49,690 bases of DNA from Thiobacillaceae bacterium (GTDB lineage Bacteria > Pseudomonadota > Gammaproteobacteria > Burkholderiales > Thiobacillaceae), in the NCBI GenBank assembly GCA_035332045.1, contig DAOQNK010000005.1:1-49690 (forward strand). The letters are read 5' to 3'. Both the position numbers and the translations under genes were made by a program. Shown piece after piece: positions 8,732 to 49,690 of the stretch; the first letter of the stretch is position 1, and every line of letters begins with the position of its first letter. Below the pieces are notes generated by a model that did not search any database, was not told where the DNA came from, and saw only the letters and a program-made list of their open reading frames with translations.

Positions 8732-8958
8732 CTACCCAACCGCCCCTGGCCACCACTCGAGTCGTCTTCGTGTAGCATCCACCCAAGGGTGTCCGGGGCG
8801 TGCCACATGCCCGGGCAGGATTCGTGCCGGTCGGGCCGCCGCACGCTTTTCGAGGACACCCATGCGCCCCCTTCGCGTTTACCACGGCGCCCACCGCGCG
8901 CCTGACAAACCTGCCCGGTCTTCATCTTTTCCCCGCGTCGCGCGACGAGGTGCCTGAG

Positions 8959-45933: not shown

Positions 45934-46024
45934 TCTGGTTTCCTTGCAGCGTTAAGGTGAAATTCCCATGGGAGCCTCCAAGCCGCATCCCCGTCTGGCT
46001 CGCCCGGGGCACGGCCTCGCCCGC

Positions 46025-47683
46025 TCATTGGCCCGTTCCCGTGCGGCGCTCGCCGGTGGCCAGGGGACGGATGTTGCCGGGCGTCGCCTCGCATTCGCGG
46101 ACCAGCGCCTGGATGAAAGGGTCGCTCCGGATCGCCGCCTCGGCCTCGCCCTGGCGTTCGGCCTGTTCCCGGGCCCTGGCAGCCGCCGGCGAGGCCGCCG
46201 TATCGGCCGCCAGCTCAAAGTCCAGTTTGACGGCTCCCCCCAGCTTGTCGGCCAGGGCGTCGCGCAGCTTGTCGCTCATGCCGGCGTTCATCAAGGTTTT
46301 CTGGCTTTCCGGCAGCCGCAAACGGAGATGATTACCGACCCGCGACACCAGTTCGCATTGCATGGCCAGTTGCCGCGCCAGGCCGGGCAGGCTTTCCGCC
46401 AGGGCGCGCCATTCGGGCGCCGGCACCGGCGTGGACTCCACCGCACCGCAGGAAACGGGGAGGGGACCTTCGTTGGCGGCAACCTGGACGCCGGCCGCTG
46501 GGCGGGTGGGCACCGCCGCGGCCAGGGCGGCTTTCGCCCCGACGCCCGGGGGCGGGCTCGAGTCCCGCCGCCGGTCGCCGCCCGGCGGGGAAGGCCCGTC
46601 GCCGGGGACGAAGGCCAGCATGCGCAGGAGGGTCATGCTGAAGCCCGCCAGCTCGTCGGGGGCCCACTCCAGGTCCCTGCGGCCCAGGGTTGCGATCTGG
46701 TATTGCAACTGCACTGTCTCCGGATCCAGGCATTCCGCCAGGGCAAACAGCCTGTCCCGCTCCGGCACATCTTCGGCCACGGCCTCGGGCACGGCCTGGG
46801 CCAGGGCAATCTGGTGCAGCAGGCCGGCCATATCCTGGAGGGCGGCATCAAAGGAAAAACCCCGGGCCGCCAGTTCGCCGGCCTCGTTCATGAGGCGGGG
46901 GCCGTCTCGCCCGGCCAGGGCTTCCAGAACCGGCAGGAGATAGGCCTGATCGATGACCCCCAGCATGGCCCGGGTGTCCGCTTCCCTGACCTGGCCGCCG
47001 CCATAGGCGATGGCCTGGTCGGTCAGGGACAGGGCGTCGCGCATGCTGCCGGCGGCCGCCCGGGCCAGCAAGGCAAGGGCGCCGGACTCGTGGGGCACCT
47101 GTTCCGTCTCCAGCACCTGTTTCAGGTGGCCCGCCACCTGACCGGGCGGCATTTGCTTGAGATTGAACTGGAGGCAGCGGGAAAGGACCGTCACCGGCAC
47201 TTTCTGGGGATCAGTGGTGGCGAGGATGAACACCACATGGCTGGGCGGCTCCTCCAGGGTCTTCAACATGGCGTTGAAGGCATTCTTGGAGAGCATGTGG
47301 ACTTCATCGATGATGAAAACCTTGTGGCGGCCCGTGGTGGGCGCGTACTGGGCGTTCTCCAGGATGTCCCGCATGTTGTCCACGCCCGTGTTGGAGGCGG
47401 CATCCAGCTCGATGAGATCCACGAAGCGGCCGCCATCGATCTCCCGGCAGGCCGAACACGTGCCGCAGGGCTCGGGTGTGACCCCCGTCTCGCAGTTCAG
47501 GCACTTGGCCAGAATGCGCGCCAGGGTGGTCTTGCCCACTCCTCGGGTGCCGGTGAACAGGTAGGCATGGTGCAGCCGGCCCCCGGCCAGGGCGTTGGAG
47601 AGCGCCCGCACTACATGCTCCTGCCCGACCAGCTGGTCGAAGCGCTTGGGACGCCATTTGCGGGCGAGGACCTGATGACTCAT
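46025..47683 (-). CDS. dnaX: DNA polymerase III subunit gamma/tau
   Basis: MSHQVLARKWRPKRFDQLVGQEHV..GTRGVGKTT..CGTCSACREI..IIDEVHMLS.. Confidence 0.95.
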   Translation of the reverse strand: MSHQVLARKWRPKRFDQLVGQEHVVRALSNALAGGRLHHAYLFTGTRGVGKTTLARILAKCLNCETGVTPEPCGTCSACREIDGGRFVDLIELDAASNTGVDNMRDILENAQYAPTTGRHKVFIIDEVHMLSKNAFNAMLKTLEEPPSHVVFILATTDPQKVPVTVLSRCLQFNLKQMPPGQVAGHLKQVLETEQVPHESGALALLARAAAGSMRDALSLTDQAIAYGGGQVREADTRAMLGVIDQAYLLPVLEALAGRDGPRLMNEAGELAARGFSFDAALQDMAGLLHQIALAQAVPEAVAEDVPERDRLFALAECLDPETVQLQYQIATLGRRDLEWAPDELAGFSMTLLRMLAFVPGDGPSPPGGDRRRDSSPPPGVGAKAALAAAVPTRPAAGVQVAANEGPLPVSCGAVESTPVPAPEWRALAESLPGLARQLAMQCELVSRVGNHLRLRLPESQKTLMNAGMSDKLRDALADKLGGAVKLDFELAADTAASPAAARAREQAERQGEAEAAIRSDPFIQALVRECEATPGNIRPLATGERRTGTGQ

Positions 47684-47773
47684 GCGGGTAGCGAGGCGTT
47701 AGGCGTGAAGCGCGAGGCGGCAAGACCGCGGGTCGTTCCACCCGCTCTTGACGCCTTGCCCCTCACCGAATTC

Positions 47774-47875
47774 GGGGTGGCGAGCCTGACCCCCGGCACT
47801 GGCATCGATCGCTGTGGCTGCTTCCTTCCGGACCTGACCAGGTTCACGACTTAGCCATGCGGGGAGACCCGCCAC
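47774..47875 (-). ncRNA. ffs: Signal recognition particle RNA (4.5S type)
   Basis: The minus strand contains CCUGGUCAGGUCCGGAAGGAAGCAGCCACAGC, the universally conserved SRP domain IV. The 5' GUGGCGGGUCUCCCCGCAUGGC pairs with the 3' GCCAGUGCCGGGGGUC..CUCGCCAC. A TAGAAT -10 box lies just upstream, and the position upstream of dnaX is classical. Ends are +/- 5 nt. Confidence 0.85.
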
Positions 47876-47921
47876 GGGGCATTCTAGCATGGCCCGGCGG
47901 GCCGCCGCCCCGGGCGTCGCC

Positions 47922-48998
47922 CTATTCGTCCTCGGCCGGGGTGGTGACCCGCCGGGCCCGCACGGCCTCGGCCAATTGGCGCAGCAGGGGCTCGGTGGCA
48001 TCCCAGCCGACGCAGGCATCGGTGACCGAAACGCCGTAGGCCAGGGCCTTGCCCGGCTGGGCATCCTGCCGGCCGGGATTGAGGTGGCTTTCGATCATCA
48101 CGCCCATGATCCGGCGGTCGCCGCCGGCGATCTGGCCGGCCACGTCGGCCCCCACGTCCACCTGGCGCTGGTATTGCTTGCTGGAGTTGGCATGGGAGAA
48201 GTCGATCATCACCACCTGCCGCAAGCCGGCGTTGGCCAGTTCCCCGCAGGCGGCGTTGACGCTGGTGGCGTCGTAGTTGGGCTGCTTGCCGCCGCGCAGG
48301 ATCACGTGGCAGTCCTCGTTGCCGGCGGTCTTGAACACCGCCACGTGGCCGGACTTGGTGATGGAGATGAAATGATGGCGGGCGGCGGCGGCCTTGATGG
48401 CGTCGACGGCGATCCTCAGGTTGCCGTCGGTACCGTTCTTGAAGCCCACCGGGCAGGACAAACCCGAGGCCAGCTGACGGTGGGACTGGGATTCGGTCGT
48501 GCGGGCGCCGATGGCCCCCCAGGCCACCAGGTCGGCGATGTACTGGGGCGAGATCAGGTCCAGGAATTCCGTGCCGCAGGGCAATCCCGTTTCGTTGATT
48601 TCGAGCAGGAGCTTGCGGGCCAGGCGCAGGCCCTCGTTGATGTCGAAGCTCTCATCCATGTGGGGATCGTTGATGAGCCCTTTCCAGCCCACCGTGGTGC
48701 GGGGCTTCTCGAAGTAGACCCGCATGACCACGATCAGGTCCCGTTCCAGCTCATCGGCCAGGGCCTTGAGGCGGCCGGCATAGTCCAGGGCGGCCTTGGG
48801 GTCGTGGATGGAGCAGGGCCCCACTACCACCACCAGGCGATCGTCGGCGCCCCGCAATACGTCGTGGATGCGGTTGCGGGCCTGGAAGGTGGTGCGCAGG
48901 GCGGTTTCGCTGGCCTTCAGCTCGCGCATCAGTTGCATGGGAGCGAGGAGTTCGTCGCCCTGCTCGATGCGGGTGTCGTCGGTACGGAAATGGGTCAT
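47922..48998 (-). CDS. aroG: Class I 3-deoxy-7-phosphoheptulonate (DAHP) synthase; feedback specificity not determinable from sequence by eye
   Basis: LVVVVGPCSIHDP, VMRVYFEKPRTTVGWKGLINDPHMD, WGAIGARTTESQSHRQLASGLSCPVGFKNGTDG and IDFSHANS are present. The protein is collinear with E. coli AroG. Confidence 0.95.
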   Translation of the reverse strand: MTHFRTDDTRIEQGDELLAPMQLMRELKASETALRTTFQARNRIHDVLRGADDRLVVVVGPCSIHDPKAALDYAGRLKALADELERDLIVVMRVYFEKPRTTVGWKGLINDPHMDESFDINEGLRLARKLLLEINETGLPCGTEFLDLISPQYIADLVAWGAIGARTTESQSHRQLASGLSCPVGFKNGTDGNLRIAVDAIKAAAARHHFISITKSGHVAVFKTAGNEDCHVILRGGKQPNYDATSVNAACGELANAGLRQVVMIDFSHANSSKQYQRQVDVGADVAGQIAGGDRRIMGVMIESHLNPGRQDAQPGKALAYGVSVTDACVGWDATEPLLRQLAEAVRARRVTTPAEDE

Positions 48999-49030
48999 GT
49001 GAGGTTCCTTGTCGATGCCGGCCCTGAAAC

Positions 49031-49057
49031 GAAAAACCGCCAGGGTCCTGGCGGTTT
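49031..49057 (-). terminator. Rho-independent terminator / candidate attenuator upstream of the DAHP synthase gene
   Basis: The minus strand reads ACCGCCAG-GACC-CTGGCGGT followed by TTTTTCGTTTC. An 8-bp stem ends about 35 nt before the aroG ATG. Confidence 0.75.
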
Positions 49058-49086
49058 CACGGGGGGCAAGCTACGACTGCAGTGGA

Positions 49087-49155
49087 TCAGCGCCTCCCGG
49101 CCGCCTGGGCCAGGAAGAGGGTAAATCGAAAAAAGCGCTGATGAATCAGGGTCAT
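49087..49155 (-). CDS. Candidate 22-codon Phe-rich leader peptide
   Basis: ATG ACC CTG ATT CAT CAG CGC TTT TTT CGA TTT ACC CTC TTC CTG GCC CAG GCG GCC GGG AGG CGC TGA translates to MTLIHQRFFRFTLFLAQAAGRR. It ends about 30 nt before the terminator. There is no convincing SD. Confidence 0.4.
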   Translation of the reverse strand: MTLIHQRFFRFTLFLAQAAGRR

Positions 49156-49211
49156 GGGCCGGATGCTAACAGAGCGTGTTGCGCCGCCACAAGCCGGCCC
49201 CTTGATCCCGA

Positions 49212-49690
49212 TCAACCCACCTTGGGCAGGCGATGCAGCGCCGCCTCGATCTCGTGCTCCGGATAGGCGTAGTCCTCGAGCTTGCCGGCGAAGTAGGCAT
49301 CGTAGGAGGCCATGTCGAAGTGGCCGTGGCCCGACAGGTTGAAGAACAGGGTCTTCGGCTCGCCGCTCGCCTTGCAGCGCAGGGCCTCGTCGATGCAGGC
49401 GCGGATGGCATGGCAGGATTCTGGCGCGGGGATGATGCCCTCGGCCCGGGCGAAGGTGACGCCGGCCTCGAAGGTGGCCAGTTGCGGCACCGCCACCGCC
49501 TCGATGAGTCCTTCCTTGTAGAGCTGGGACACCAGGGGGGAGTCGCCGTGGTAGCGCAGGCCGCCGGCATGGATGCCCGGCGGCACGAAGTCGTGGCCCA
49601 GGGTGTACATGAGCATCAGCGGGGTGTAGCCGGAAGCGTCGCCGTAGTCGTAGGCGTAGTGGCCCCGGGTCAGGGTGGGGCAGGAATCCG
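49212..49690 (-). CDS. TrpB-like PLP-dependent enzyme (tryptophan synthase beta-chain-like, TrpB2 type); the N-terminal part lies outside the window
   Basis: The C-terminal sequence reads ..[62 protein letters not shown].. The reading frame stays open to the window edge. Confidence 0.85.

What the first reader, a model, noticed from the sequence alone, without database searches (positions are those of the whole stretch)
48999..49211. Phe-rich leader ORF plus terminator upstream of the DAHP synthase gene: candidate translational attenuator
A 22-codon ORF lies between the TrpB-like gene stop (49212) and the DAHP synthase ATG (48998), on the same strand. It encodes MTLIHQRFFRFTLFLAQAAGRR, with 4 Phe within 8 residues (codons TTT TTT CGA TTT ACC CTC TTC).

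About 30 nt after its stop comes a strong intrinsic terminator (ACCGCCAG-GACC-CTGGCGGT-TTTTT). The aroG SD (AAGGAA) follows.

This is the architecture of pheL/pheA-type attenuators. The first committed enzyme of aromatic amino acid synthesis is a logical target. E. coli aroG is TyrR-controlled, not attenuated.

Possible alternative pairings are visible. The leader segment CCAGGCGG is complementary, with one A.A mismatch, to the 5' terminator arm CCGCCAGG. CGGGAGGC at the leader end is complementary, with one mismatch, to GCCCCCCG just before the terminator.

Caveats: there is no obvious SD for the leader, and the hairpin could simply be the terminator of the upstream TrpB-like gene.
Basis: partly seen in the sequence, partly recalled or inferred. 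Interest (0 to 1): 0.62.

Follow-up and report, generated by a model that had tools for sequence, protein, structure and literature searches.

The report
Phenylalanine leader-peptide attenuator before aroG
A 22-codon mini-gene rich in phenylalanine codons, followed by a switchable transcription stop signal, sits in front of the first gene of aromatic amino-acid synthesis in this Thiobacillus genome. It most likely turns that gene up when phenylalanine runs short: a textbook mechanism, but a widespread family I found in no catalogue or paper.

Summary
The only change is that the leader ATG is at 49155, not 49154. The interpretation as a pheL-type, ribosome-mediated transcription attenuator is supported.

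- **It travels with aroG.** 21 of 24 Thiobacillus genomes with readable upstream sequence have it, including nine where the upstream gene is not TrpB-like. So the hairpin is not just that gene's terminator.
- **It is a family.** A covariance model gives full-length matches in about 73 of 301 sampled Burkholderiales genomes, and exactly one in this genome. Other members carry 5-8 mixed Phe/Tyr/Trp codons. This clade is Phe-only.
- **The missing SD is explained.** A conserved extended -10 box (TGTTAGCAT) ends 7 nt before the ATG, and 6-9 nt in 36 of 44 leaders. The leader is probably translated from a leaderless mRNA.
- **The geometry and energies fit.** The last aromatic codon lies mostly 14 nt before an invariant GGCGG, and the stop codon mostly 16 nt after it. 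Energies here are 1:2 -17.8, terminator -20.5 and antiterminator -25.9 kcal/mol.
- **Weak points.**
  - No transcription start or phenylalanine response was measured.
  - Strict covariation within the genus is not significant.
  - Some congeners keep only one Phe codon.
- **Catalogues.** Rfam, Pfam, NCBIfam and the searchable papers hold nothing. The closest precedents are E. coli pheL-pheA and Corynebacterium aroR-aroF.

The parts
49187..49192 (-). Probable -35 element TTGTGG
   Evidence: TTG is conserved across the genus. The spacer to the -10 box is a constant 17-18 nt with variable sequence. It matches only 3 of 6 consensus positions, and the promoter scan did not call it. Inferred.
49163..49171 (-). 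Probable extended -10 element TGT-TAGCAT
   Evidence: It is nearly invariant in 21 Thiobacillus genomes. A TAnnnT box ends 6-9 nt before the leader ATG in 36 of 44 unique leaders, with no SD. Inferred; no transcription-start data.
49087..49155 (-). Leader ORF of 22 codons plus TGA: MTLIHQRFFRFTLFLAQAAGRR. The predicted transcript 5' end is at or 1 nt before the A of the ATG.
   Evidence: The ORF is conserved at 19-27 codons, with indels in multiples of 3. The model R1 match starts exactly at 49155.
49114..49134 (-). Regulatory codons TTT TTT CGA TTT ACC CTC TTC (F8, F9, R10, F11, F14), the proposed ribosome stall sites
   Evidence: TTT is 10.7% of Phe codons and CGA 3% of Arg codons in this genome. 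FFRF is kept through synonymous TTT/TTC changes in relatives. CGATTT is near-invariant in the genus.
49108..49117 (-). Region 1 (CUUCCUGGCC), the 5' arm of the 1:2 anti-antiterminator hairpin
   Evidence: It forms a 10-bp hairpin with 49093-49102, at -17.4 kcal/mol and z = -2.35. It lies inside the footprint of a ribosome with a Phe codon in its A site.
49088..49107 (-). Region 2, with GGCGG at 49105-49101 followed by CCGGGAGGCGCUG. It pairs either with region 1 or with region 3.
   Evidence: GGCGG is invariant in the genus. It is kept in the family even where its reading phase differs. A ribosome at the stop codon covers it.
49047..49067 (-). Region 3 (GCCCCCCGUGAAACCGCCAGG). It is the 5' arm of the terminator and also the partner of region 2.
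   Evidence: The constrained fold gives the antiterminator when region 1 is masked. Its energy is -25.9 against -20.5 kcal/mol for the terminator. Cognate pairs beat non-cognate pairs.
49027..49057 (-). Intrinsic terminator: stem AAACCGCCAG / CTGGCGGTTT, loop GACC, tail TTCGTTT
   Evidence: The stem is invariant in the genus. A compensatory A-U to G-C change occurs in L056 and L089.
49013..49026 (-). Conserved block CAGGGCCGGCATCG (genus consensus GGGCTGGCAC) between the terminator and the SD. Role unknown.
   Evidence: Conserved columns in alignment A1. Not explained.
49005..49010 (-). aroG Shine-Dalgarno sequence AAGGAA
   Evidence: It lies 6 nt before the ATG.
47922..48998 (-). aroG, the regulated gene: a class I DAHP synthase of 358 aa
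   Evidence: NCBIfam NF006723 AroG equivalog, 579.2 bits against a cut-off of 568.

Best explanation
This is a ribosome-mediated (leader-peptide) transcription attenuator of aroG that senses charged tRNA-Phe.

**Proposed mechanism**
1. Transcription starts from its own promoter: TTGTGG, an 18-nt spacer, then TGT-TAGCAT. The start falls at, or one base before, the A of the leader AUG, so the 22-codon leader is read from a leaderless mRNA.
2. With ample Phe-tRNA, the ribosome runs to the UGA. There it covers region 2 (GGCGGCCGGGAGG). Region 3 then pairs with region 4, and RNA polymerase stops at the U-tract.
3. With no ribosome on the RNA, regions 1:2 and 3:4 form and transcription also stops.
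4. With scarce Phe-tRNA, the ribosome stalls on the rare UUU UUU CGA UUU ... UUC codons. It covers region 1 and leaves region 2 free. Region 2 pairs with region 3 before region 4 is made, and polymerase reads on into aroG.

**Shown here**
- the sequence features;
- their conservation and fixed geometry in relatives;
- the energy order of the three structures.

**Inferred**
- the transcription start;
- translation of the leader;
- stalling of the ribosome;
- the response to phenylalanine.
For: **Linkage to aroG**
- The full element is present in 21 of 24 Thiobacillus genomes with readable upstream sequence.
- Nine of these have a different upstream gene.

**Family**
- I collected 44 unique leaders upstream of aroG from Thiobacillaceae, Usitatibacteraceae, the Burkholderia cepacia complex, Pararobbsia and other Burkholderiales.
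- Model R1 gives full-length matches in about 73 of 301 genomes of the order and only one in this genome, at 97.7 bits.
- Five of five matches that could be cross-checked lie just upstream of the aroG hits.

**Coding signals**
- The ATG is invariant, ORFs are 19-27 codons, and indels are in threes.
- Aromatic codons average 4.98 in the ORF frame against 2.68 and 1.80 in the other two frames.
- TTT outnumbers TTC 102 to 53, although TTT is 10.7% of Phe codons in this genome.
- Close relatives show synonymous TTT/TTC changes.

**Geometry**
- The last aromatic codon lies 14 nt before GGCGG in 20 of 41 leaders (range 11-20).
- GGCGG lies 16 nt before the stop codon in 32 of 41.
- A stalled ribosome therefore uncovers region 2, and a terminating ribosome covers it.

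**RNA-level constraint**
- GGCGG is kept even where its codon phase differs, in L034 and L040.

**Structures**
- Constrained folds switch from 1:2 plus terminator to the antiterminator when a ribosome is placed on F11.
- Energies are 1:2 -17.8, terminator -20.5 and antiterminator -25.9 kcal/mol.
- Region 2:3 duplexes average -19.1 kcal/mol against -13.7 for shuffles.
- For the variable inner part of 2:3, cognate pairs average -10.7 and non-cognate pairs -9.0 kcal/mol (permutation p = 0.0004).
- For 1:2, the cognate against non-cognate test gives p = 0.02.
- The matched helix strands change together between lineages: CCC/GGG, CUC/GAG, UUUUC/GAAAG and UUUCC/GGAAG.

**Leaderless start**
- The -10 box ends 6-9 nt before the ATG in 36 of 44 leaders, with no SD.
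Against: - There are no experimental data. Metatranscriptome contigs are too sparse to show a 5' or 3' end. One contig runs from the TrpB-like gene through the leader into aroG; this could be read-through transcription or DNA carry-over.
- The consensus scanner called neither the promoter nor the terminator. The -35 element matches only 3 of 6 positions.
- A fixed-column covariation test within the genus is not significant. 76% of cells pair, but the covariation score is reached by 52 of 500 shuffles, and the core helix never varies.
- RNAalifold gave no consensus antiterminator.
- For this sequence alone the 2:3 duplex is only z = -1.43 against shuffles, because the region is very GC-rich.
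- The cognate against non-cognate statistics ignore phylogenetic relatedness.
- Five congeners keep only one Phe codon, and one genome (G015) has lost the ORF but kept the promoter and terminator. The codon run is therefore not indispensable everywhere.
- In this sequence the T-run also gives 4 aromatic codons in the +1 frame.
Confidence: 0.82

Rival explanations
1. The hairpin is simply the terminator of the upstream TrpB-like gene, and the mini-ORF is a chance reading frame in a spacer.
For: The hairpin lies 155 nt downstream of the TrpB-like stop codon on the same strand. One metatranscriptome contig is continuous from that gene into aroG. For this sequence alone the statistics are modest: P = 0.006 for the Phe count, and 4 aromatic codons also in the +1 frame.
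Against: The promoter-ORF-terminator block is kept upstream of aroG in nine Thiobacillus genomes with other upstream genes, and in other families. A conserved promoter-like block lies between the TrpB-like stop codon and the ORF. The start codon, the reading frame and the stop position are all conserved.
Confidence: 0.03
2. The element is a real attenuator, but the signal is read by the RNA itself or by a bound protein (riboswitch-like or TRAP/PyrR-like), not by a translating ribosome. On this view the U-rich tract is conserved as RNA.
For: CGAUUU and GGCGG are conserved as nucleotides. The UUUUUUCG run is complementary to the CGAGAAA linker before the terminator, and it pairs with it in some truncated folds. 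Five congeners keep one Phe codon only. There is no SD.
Against: The ATG is invariant at a fixed distance from the -10 box. Indels occur in threes inside the ORF only. The stop codon lies 16 nt after GGCGG in 32 of 41 leaders. Changes inside the run are synonymous (TTT/TTC). In distant members the nucleotide sequence differs completely but still encodes F/Y/W runs in that one frame. No Rfam family matches.
Confidence: 0.07
3. The arrangement is a decaying or constitutive remnant in this genus. Termination is partial and fixed, so it sets the aroG level without sensing phenylalanine, and real control is by feedback inhibition of the enzyme.
For: Aromatic codons fall from 5-8 in the outgroups to 1-2 in several Thiobacillus species. 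G015 lost the ORF, and G003 and G020 lack the element altogether.
Against: This genome's clade keeps 4-6 aromatic codons in rare synonymous forms, with a strong 1:2 hairpin and an antiterminator more stable than the terminator. A neutral remnant would not keep that.
Confidence: 0.08

Closest known systems
E. coli pheL-pheA attenuator (Rfam Phe_leader RF01859) and pheM-pheST
   Same: Both have a short leader ORF with a run of Phe codons, followed by mutually exclusive 1:2, 2:3 and 3:4 hairpins and an intrinsic terminator. Both sense charged tRNA-Phe through ribosome stalling (summarised in PMC11802643).
   Different: - There is no sequence or structure homology: no Rfam match at E up to 10.
- The gene controlled is the first common-pathway enzyme (aroG), not the Phe branch.
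- There is no SD, and the start is probably leaderless.
- The host is a betaproteobacterium.
- E. coli aroG itself is controlled by TyrR, not by attenuation (my own knowledge).
Corynebacterium glutamicum aroR-aroF attenuator (Neshat et al. 2014, as summarised in PMC11802643)
   Same: A leader peptide with aromatic residues (Phe-Tyr-Phe) lies upstream of a DAHP synthase gene. Transcription rises when ribosomes stall under Phe limitation.
   Different: The host is an actinobacterium and the origin is presumably independent. The aromatic motif is shorter. I could not compare sequences, because the original paper is not in the held library.
Leaderless leader peptides: Sinorhizobium meliloti trpL and the 14 predicted leaders of Deinococcus deserti
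   Same: The transcript 5' end coincides with the leader start codon, or lies 1 nt before it, so the attenuator ORF is read without an SD (PMC7298713; PMC4007540).
   Different: In those cases the start was mapped experimentally. Here it is inferred from the -10 to ATG spacing only. They also sense other amino acids and control other genes.
Aromatic (Phe/Tyr/Trp) aroG leaders of other Burkholderiales, uncatalogued. Examples: Burkholderia MSAKFYFYFFWHLRPLADREG and Usitatibacter MRRFPLPFYWFCFYLTPEAVERV.
   Same: The GGCGG box, the CCGCC...GGCGG terminator, the ORF length and the spacing are all shared, and all lie upstream of aroG. They are homologous by model R1.
   Different: - Those leaders mix Phe, Tyr and Trp (5-8 aromatic codons), which suggests a response to several amino acids. 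This clade is Phe-only (4 codons).
- Burkholderia and Pararobbsia have a 5' UTR of about 30 nt.
- L061, L063 and L090 have an SD.

Membership tests
Ribosome-mediated (leader-peptide) transcription attenuators | A short ORF upstream of a biosynthetic gene, enriched in codons for the pathway's end product | tested here: met
   4 Phe in 22 codons against 3.5% genome-wide (P = 0.006). The enrichment is conserved and frame-specific across the family.
Ribosome-mediated (leader-peptide) transcription attenuators | An intrinsic terminator between the leader ORF and the structural gene | tested here: met
   An 11-bp GC-rich hairpin at -18.8 kcal/mol, followed by UUUUUCGUUU. It is invariant in the genus. 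The simple consensus scanner did not list it.
Ribosome-mediated (leader-peptide) transcription attenuators | An antiterminator that uses the 5' arm of the terminator and excludes it | tested here: met
   Constrained folds. Energy -25.9 against -20.5 kcal/mol. Cognate pairs beat non-cognate pairs, p = 0.0004. Strict covariation within the genus is not significant.
Ribosome-mediated (leader-peptide) transcription attenuators | An anti-antiterminator (1:2) whose 5' arm a ribosome stalled at the regulatory codons would cover, with the stop codon placed so that a terminating ribosome covers region 2 | tested here: met
   The 1:2 hairpin is present in all 41 leaders; here it is -17.4 kcal/mol. The spacings of 14 nt and 16 nt are conserved.
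Ribosome-mediated (leader-peptide) transcription attenuators | The leader is translated, and read-through responds to the level of charged tRNA | not testable with these tools
   Only sparse metatranscriptome contigs are available. Reporter fusions, term-seq or ribosome profiling are needed.
Rfam Phe_leader (RF01859) | A match to the family covariance model | tested here: not met
   No Phe_leader match at E up to 10 in the window region, and none at E up to 1 in seven related loci. The element works like pheL but is not a member.
Betaproteobacterial aroG aromatic-leader family (defined here by model R1) | A full-length match to the model, lying directly upstream of an aroG homologue | tested here: met
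   Window 49032-49155(-), 97.7 bits, E = 1.5e-22, the only full-length match in the genome. This sequence was part of the seed alignment, so the match is by construction. Membership rests on the alignment with relatives.
Leaderless mRNAs | The transcript 5' end lies at the start codon or within a few nt of it, with no SD | tested here: inconclusive
   The -10 box ends 7 nt before the ATG, and 6-9 nt in 36 of 44 leaders, with no SD. No 5' end data exist. The promoter scanner was negative.

The most novel reading that the evidence does not exclude
Entry into the shikimate pathway in a large part of the Burkholderiales is governed by a so far uncatalogued family of leader-peptide attenuators. Their leader is translated from a leaderless mRNA, so a 70S ribosome has to load on the 5' AUG while polymerase is only a few dozen bases ahead.

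Within Thiobacillus this sensor has narrowed from a mixed Phe/Tyr/Trp read-out to Phe only. In some species it has narrowed further, to a single invariant rare-codon pair (CGA-UUU). That would mean one slow codon pair, or the nascent peptide, is enough to set the switch.
Probability: 0.3. Interest if true: 0.62.

Novelty: new member of a known kind. Interest (0 to 1): 0.45.

Why it matters
DAHP synthase commits carbon to all three aromatic amino acids. In textbooks its genes are controlled by repressors (TyrR, TrpR) and by feedback inhibition.

- **New control point.** A conserved attenuator at aroG in roughly a quarter of the sampled Burkholderiales would add a transcriptional control layer that current annotation misses. 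This includes well-studied Burkholderia.
- **Annotation.** It would explain an unannotated conserved intergenic block. It would also supply a covariance model that could go into RNA family catalogues.
- **Evolution of specificity.** The family offers natural variants for studying how sensor specificity evolves: Phe-only, mixed Phe/Tyr/Trp, single-codon leaders and ORF-deleted forms.
- **Leaderless coupling.** It gives a proteobacterial test case for coupling transcription with translation that starts on a leaderless mRNA.
- **Strain engineering.** For engineering of aromatic-compound production in these bacteria, the terminator would be an obvious element to remove.

Tried and rejected
- **Rfam.** Searches of the region (E up to 10), of seven related loci and of the whole window found no leader family.
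- **Protein families.** NCBIfam and Pfam scans of six leader peptides gave nothing.
- **Literature.** Five full-text searches and four papers read found no description of an aroG leader in Betaproteobacteria. Subscription-only papers, such as Vitreschak 2004 and Panina 2001, could not be checked.
- **Consensus scan.** The promoter and terminator scan found no sites.
- **Metatranscriptomes.** Contigs from four runs have depth 0-5 over the leader. They give no usable 5' or 3' ends.
- **RNAalifold.** On 41 truncated sequences it gave no consensus antiterminator, because the inner helix sits in different registers in different lineages.
- **Fixed-column pair count.** The covariation score is not above the shuffles.
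- **Second DAHP synthase.** The paralogue on contig C8 has a tRNA-like sequence, not a leader, upstream.
- **Phe-only leaders and the second isozyme.** I dropped the idea that Phe-only leaders go with possession of a second isozyme. Two sister genomes, G021 and G024, have the Phe-only leader but a single DAHP synthase.
- **Sigma-54 promoter.** I considered the conserved TGGCAC-like block after the terminator as a sigma-54 promoter. I rejected this because no -12 GC element follows at the right spacing.
Full report
**1. The observation**

- The TrpB-like ORF, cut by the window end, stops at 49212. It matches NCBIfam NF009057.
- The DAHP synthase gene starts at 48998. It is 358 aa and matches the AroG equivalog NF006723 with 579 bits against a cut-off of 568.
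- Between them lies ATG 49155-49153, followed by 22 codons (MTLIHQRFFRFTLFLAQAAGRR) and TGA 49089-49087.
- The Phe codons are TTT TTT (CGA) TTT at 49134-49123 and TTC at 49116-49114.
- Twenty-nine bases after the stop comes AAACCGCCAG-GACC-CTGGCGGTTT (49057-49034) with the tail TTCGTTT. This is an 11-pair hairpin of -18.8 kcal/mol.
- AAGGAA (49010-49005) lies six bases before the aroG ATG.
- The whole 226-nt spacer folds better than all 200 shuffles (z = -3.9).
- The simple consensus scanner lists neither a terminator nor a promoter here. I record that as a caveat.

**2. More than chance?**

The genome has 66% G+C.
- In 963 long, high-GC3 ORFs, Phe is 3.5% of codons. TTT is 10.7% of Phe codons and CGA is 3% of Arg codons.
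- Four Phe in 22 codons has P = 0.006. Three TTT among four Phe codons has P = 0.0045.
- These numbers are post hoc, so I did not rest the case on them.
- A crude genome-wide scan looked for mini-ORFs enriched in one residue upstream of perfect-stem terminators. It returned 60 hits, mostly C-terminal ends of real genes. Only this one is Phe-enriched.

**3. Conservation and linkage to aroG**

The genome is a Thiobacillus MAG from activated sludge (record titles; runs).
- I searched 24 congeners for the AroG protein and aligned the 306 nt upstream.
- Of the 24 genus genomes with readable upstream sequence (this genome plus 23 of those congeners; G016's contig is cut at the gene), 21 carry the full element.
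- G015 keeps the promoter and terminator but has lost the ORF. G003 and G020 lack the element.
- In nine genomes the upstream gene is not TrpB-like, yet the element is there. It therefore belongs to aroG, not to the gene before it.
- The conserved blocks, in order, are:
  - cTTGTtGc;
  - a 17-18 nt spacer of variable sequence;
  - TcTGtTAGCAT;
  - 7-9 nt;
  - ATG and an ORF of 21-27 codons;
  - GGCGG(Y)(Y)GG;
  - the stop codon;
  - a variable spacer;
  - (U)CCCCGAGAAACCGCCAG, a loop, CTGGCGGTTTTT;
  - GGGCTGGCAC;
  - the SD and aroG.

**4. It is a family**

A scan of one genome per species with the AroG protein brought in 80 more loci.
- The same arrangement stands upstream of aroG in other Thiobacillaceae, Usitatibacteraceae, unnamed Burkholiales MAGs, Pararobbsia and the Burkholderia cepacia complex.
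- Those leaders are far richer in aromatic codons, and the residues are mixed. Examples:
  - MNKLFAYFFYFFFPTPLAVGRE;
  - MRRFPLPFYWFCFYLTPEAVERV;
  - MNIRAFYFWYFYFSKPLAEKG;
  - MSAKFYFYFFWHLRPLADREG.
- I built covariance model R1 from 31 leaders and ran it on 301 evenly drawn genomes of the order. It gives full-length matches in about 73 of them, spread over many families.
- In the window's own genome there is one full-length match, at 49032-49155. This sequence was in the seed alignment.
- Five matches could be checked against the AroG hits (G028, G033, G037, G038, G039). All five lie directly upstream of the gene.

**5. Evidence that the ORF is read**

Over 41 unique leaders:
- ORF length is 19-27 codons.
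- Indels inside the ORF are multiples of three, while those after the stop are not.
- Aromatic codons average 4.98 in the ORF frame against 2.68 and 1.80 in the other frames.
- TTT outnumbers TTC 102 to 53, and TAT outnumbers TAC 24 to 15. This is against the codon preference measured in this 66% G+C genome.

Within the genus the FFRF run changes by synonymous TTT/TTC swaps at three different positions. In G018 and G010 the nucleotides differ widely, but F-L/Y-F-T-F is kept.

In this sequence alone the frames are not distinguishable (4, 4 and 2 aromatic codons), because a T-run reads as Phe in two frames.

**6. Why there is no Shine-Dalgarno sequence**

- In 36 of 44 unique leaders a TAnnnT box, mostly preceded by TGn, ends 6-9 nt before the ATG, and there is no SD (four cases corrected by hand).
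- Here TAGCAT is at 49168-49163, TG at 49171-49170, and seven bases precede the ATG.
- With the usual spacing between the -10 box and the start, the transcript begins at the A of the AUG or one base before it.
- The leader is then a leaderless ORF.
- This has precedents. S. meliloti trpL RNA starts with the ATG (PMC7298713). Fourteen predicted leader peptides in Deinococcus deserti are also leaderless (PMC4007540).
- Burkholderia and Pararobbsia instead have a 5' UTR of about 30 nt. L061, L063 and L090 have GGAGA before the ATG.
- The start site is inferred. Metatranscriptome contigs cover aroG at depth 3-7 but are too sparse over the leader.
- One contig, from a variant strain, runs from the TrpB-like gene through the leader into aroG. 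This could be read-through transcription or DNA carry-over.

**7. The switch**

Free RNA folds into a 10-bp hairpin of region 1 (CUUCCUGGCC, 49117-49108) with region 2 (GGCCGGGAGG, 49102-49093), plus the terminator.
- I masked the bases a ribosome would cover with F11 in its A site and cut the RNA before the 3' arm of the terminator. The best fold then pairs GGCGGCCGGG...GGCGCUG with the spacer, CCCC and CCGCC.
- A ribosome at the UGA covers region 2, and the terminator forms.
- Evaluated alone, the structures score 1:2 -17.8, terminator -20.5 and antiterminator -25.9 kcal/mol.
- So 1:2 plus 3:4 (-38.3) beats 2:3. Once region 1 is blocked, 2:3 beats 3:4. That is the logic of a classical attenuator.
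- The spacing supports it. The last aromatic codon starts 14 nt before GGCGG in 20 of 41 leaders (range 11-20). GGCGG starts 16 nt before the stop codon in 32 of 41.

**8. How strong is the structural evidence?**

- GGCGG, which has the same sequence as the core of the terminator's 3' arm, is invariant in the genus. It is kept in L034 and L040 in a different codon phase, which points to a constraint on the RNA.
- Region 2:3 duplexes average -19.1 kcal/mol against -13.7 for dinucleotide shuffles. The mean z is -2.06. For this sequence alone z is only -1.43.
- For the variable inner part, cognate pairs are more stable than pairs taken from different lineages: -10.7 against -9.0 kcal/mol, Wilcoxon p = 4e-5, permutation p = 4e-4.
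- The same test for 1:2 gives p = 0.0024 and 0.02.
- The matched strands differ between lineages: CCC/GGG, CUC/GAG (Usitatibacter, Burkholderia), UUUUC/GAAAG (L052, L056) and UUUCC/GGAAG (L054).
- These tests ignore relatedness between the sequences.
- The stricter tests did not pass. RNAalifold found no consensus.
- A fixed-column count within the genus shows 76% pairing against at most 49% for slid partners. Its covariation score is reached by 52 of 500 shuffles.
- I therefore call the antiterminator well supported by design and energy, and only moderately supported by covariation.

**9. Rivals**

- The reading "terminator of the upstream gene" is excluded by section 3.
- An RNA-only or protein-read switch is unlikely given section 5. 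Two facts keep it alive at a low level: CGAUUU is invariant as nucleotides in the genus, and UUUUUUCG is complementary to the CGAGAAA linker.
- A decayed, constitutive remnant is conceivable for the congeners with one Phe codon (G006, G019, G004, G001, G022). It is much less likely for this clade.

**10. Comparison with what is known**

- The element works like E. coli pheL-pheA and pheM-pheST. It is not a member of Rfam Phe_leader.
- The nearest functional precedent for the target is the Corynebacterium glutamicum aroR leader (Phe-Tyr-Phe) upstream of the DAHP synthase gene aroF. That leader responds to Phe limitation (PMC11802643).
- Pfam and NCBIfam have no family for these peptides.
- Five full-text searches found no paper on an aroG leader in Betaproteobacteria. 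A survey of attenuators does not mention aro genes (PMC2965389). A regulon survey of Proteobacteria names only pheA and trp attenuation (PMC5343134).
- Papers behind paywalls could not be checked.
- Earlier AI notes of this scan describe the same family in other genomes. I consulted them only after forming my reading. They agree with it, and they are not independent evidence.

**11. Verdict**

This is a real, conserved, phenylalanine-type leader-peptide attenuator of aroG, probably with a leaderless leader. The mechanism is textbook. The family is widespread and, as far as I could check, uncatalogued. It is a new member of a known kind and of moderate interest.

Noticed in passing
window 47776-47873 (-): A bacterial small SRP (4.5S) RNA gene lies between aroG and dnaX (76 bits). 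The same RNA follows aroG in L035 and L037. It is the most deeply covered stretch in the metatranscriptome contigs.
   Followed up: partly
window 8787-8843 (+): A match to the nhaA-I RNA (Rfam RF03057, typed there as a cis-regulatory riboswitch), 45.4 bits, above the gathering score.
   Followed up: no
window 49013-49026 (-): A conserved block (genus consensus GGGCTGGCAC) lies between the terminator and the aroG SD. It is not a sigma-54 promoter, because no -12 element follows. Its role is unknown.
   Followed up: partly
L019 (G015), upstream of aroG: A natural deletion variant. The promoter box and terminator are kept, but the aromatic leader ORF is gone and a 37-nt segment with a small hairpin stands in its place.
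   Followed up: no
L016, L021, L022, L023, L024 (G006, G004, G001, G019, G022): These Thiobacillus leaders keep the frame, the GGCGG box and an invariant CGA-TTT pair. They have only one Phe codon, in three of them with one or two Tyr or Trp codons. They are Pro-rich (PPP or PPPP) just after it.
   Followed up: partly
window 49126-49137 vs 49055-49061 (-): The GCGCUUUUUUCG stretch of the leader resembles the 3' half of the terminator (GGCGGUUUUUCG). It can pair with the CGUGAAA linker before the terminator. In the truncated folds of three sister genomes this pairing appears as the best structure.
   Followed up: no
own genome, contig C8 14794-15834 (-): A second DAHP synthase paralogue (65% identity) lies directly downstream of what looks like a tRNA gene. 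It has no leader ORF or terminator. I did not run a tRNA finder on it.
   Followed up: partly
G060:C14:58404-58511 and G289:C97:53795-53907: Two genomes of the order have a second full-length match to the leader model, besides their best-scoring match. It could be a second attenuated gene.
   Followed up: no
window 48977-49277: A metatranscriptome contig of run X28 comes from a variant strain, with 8 substitutions and one extra base next to 49155. That gives an 8-nt spacing between the -10 box and the ATG, as in sister genomes. The contig is continuous from the TrpB-like gene into aroG.
   Followed up: no
window 45968-47854 (+) and 47889-49124 (+): Long open frames of 628 and 411 aa run antisense to dnaX and aroG. 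They are probably the usual GC-rich shadow frames, not genes.
   Followed up: no
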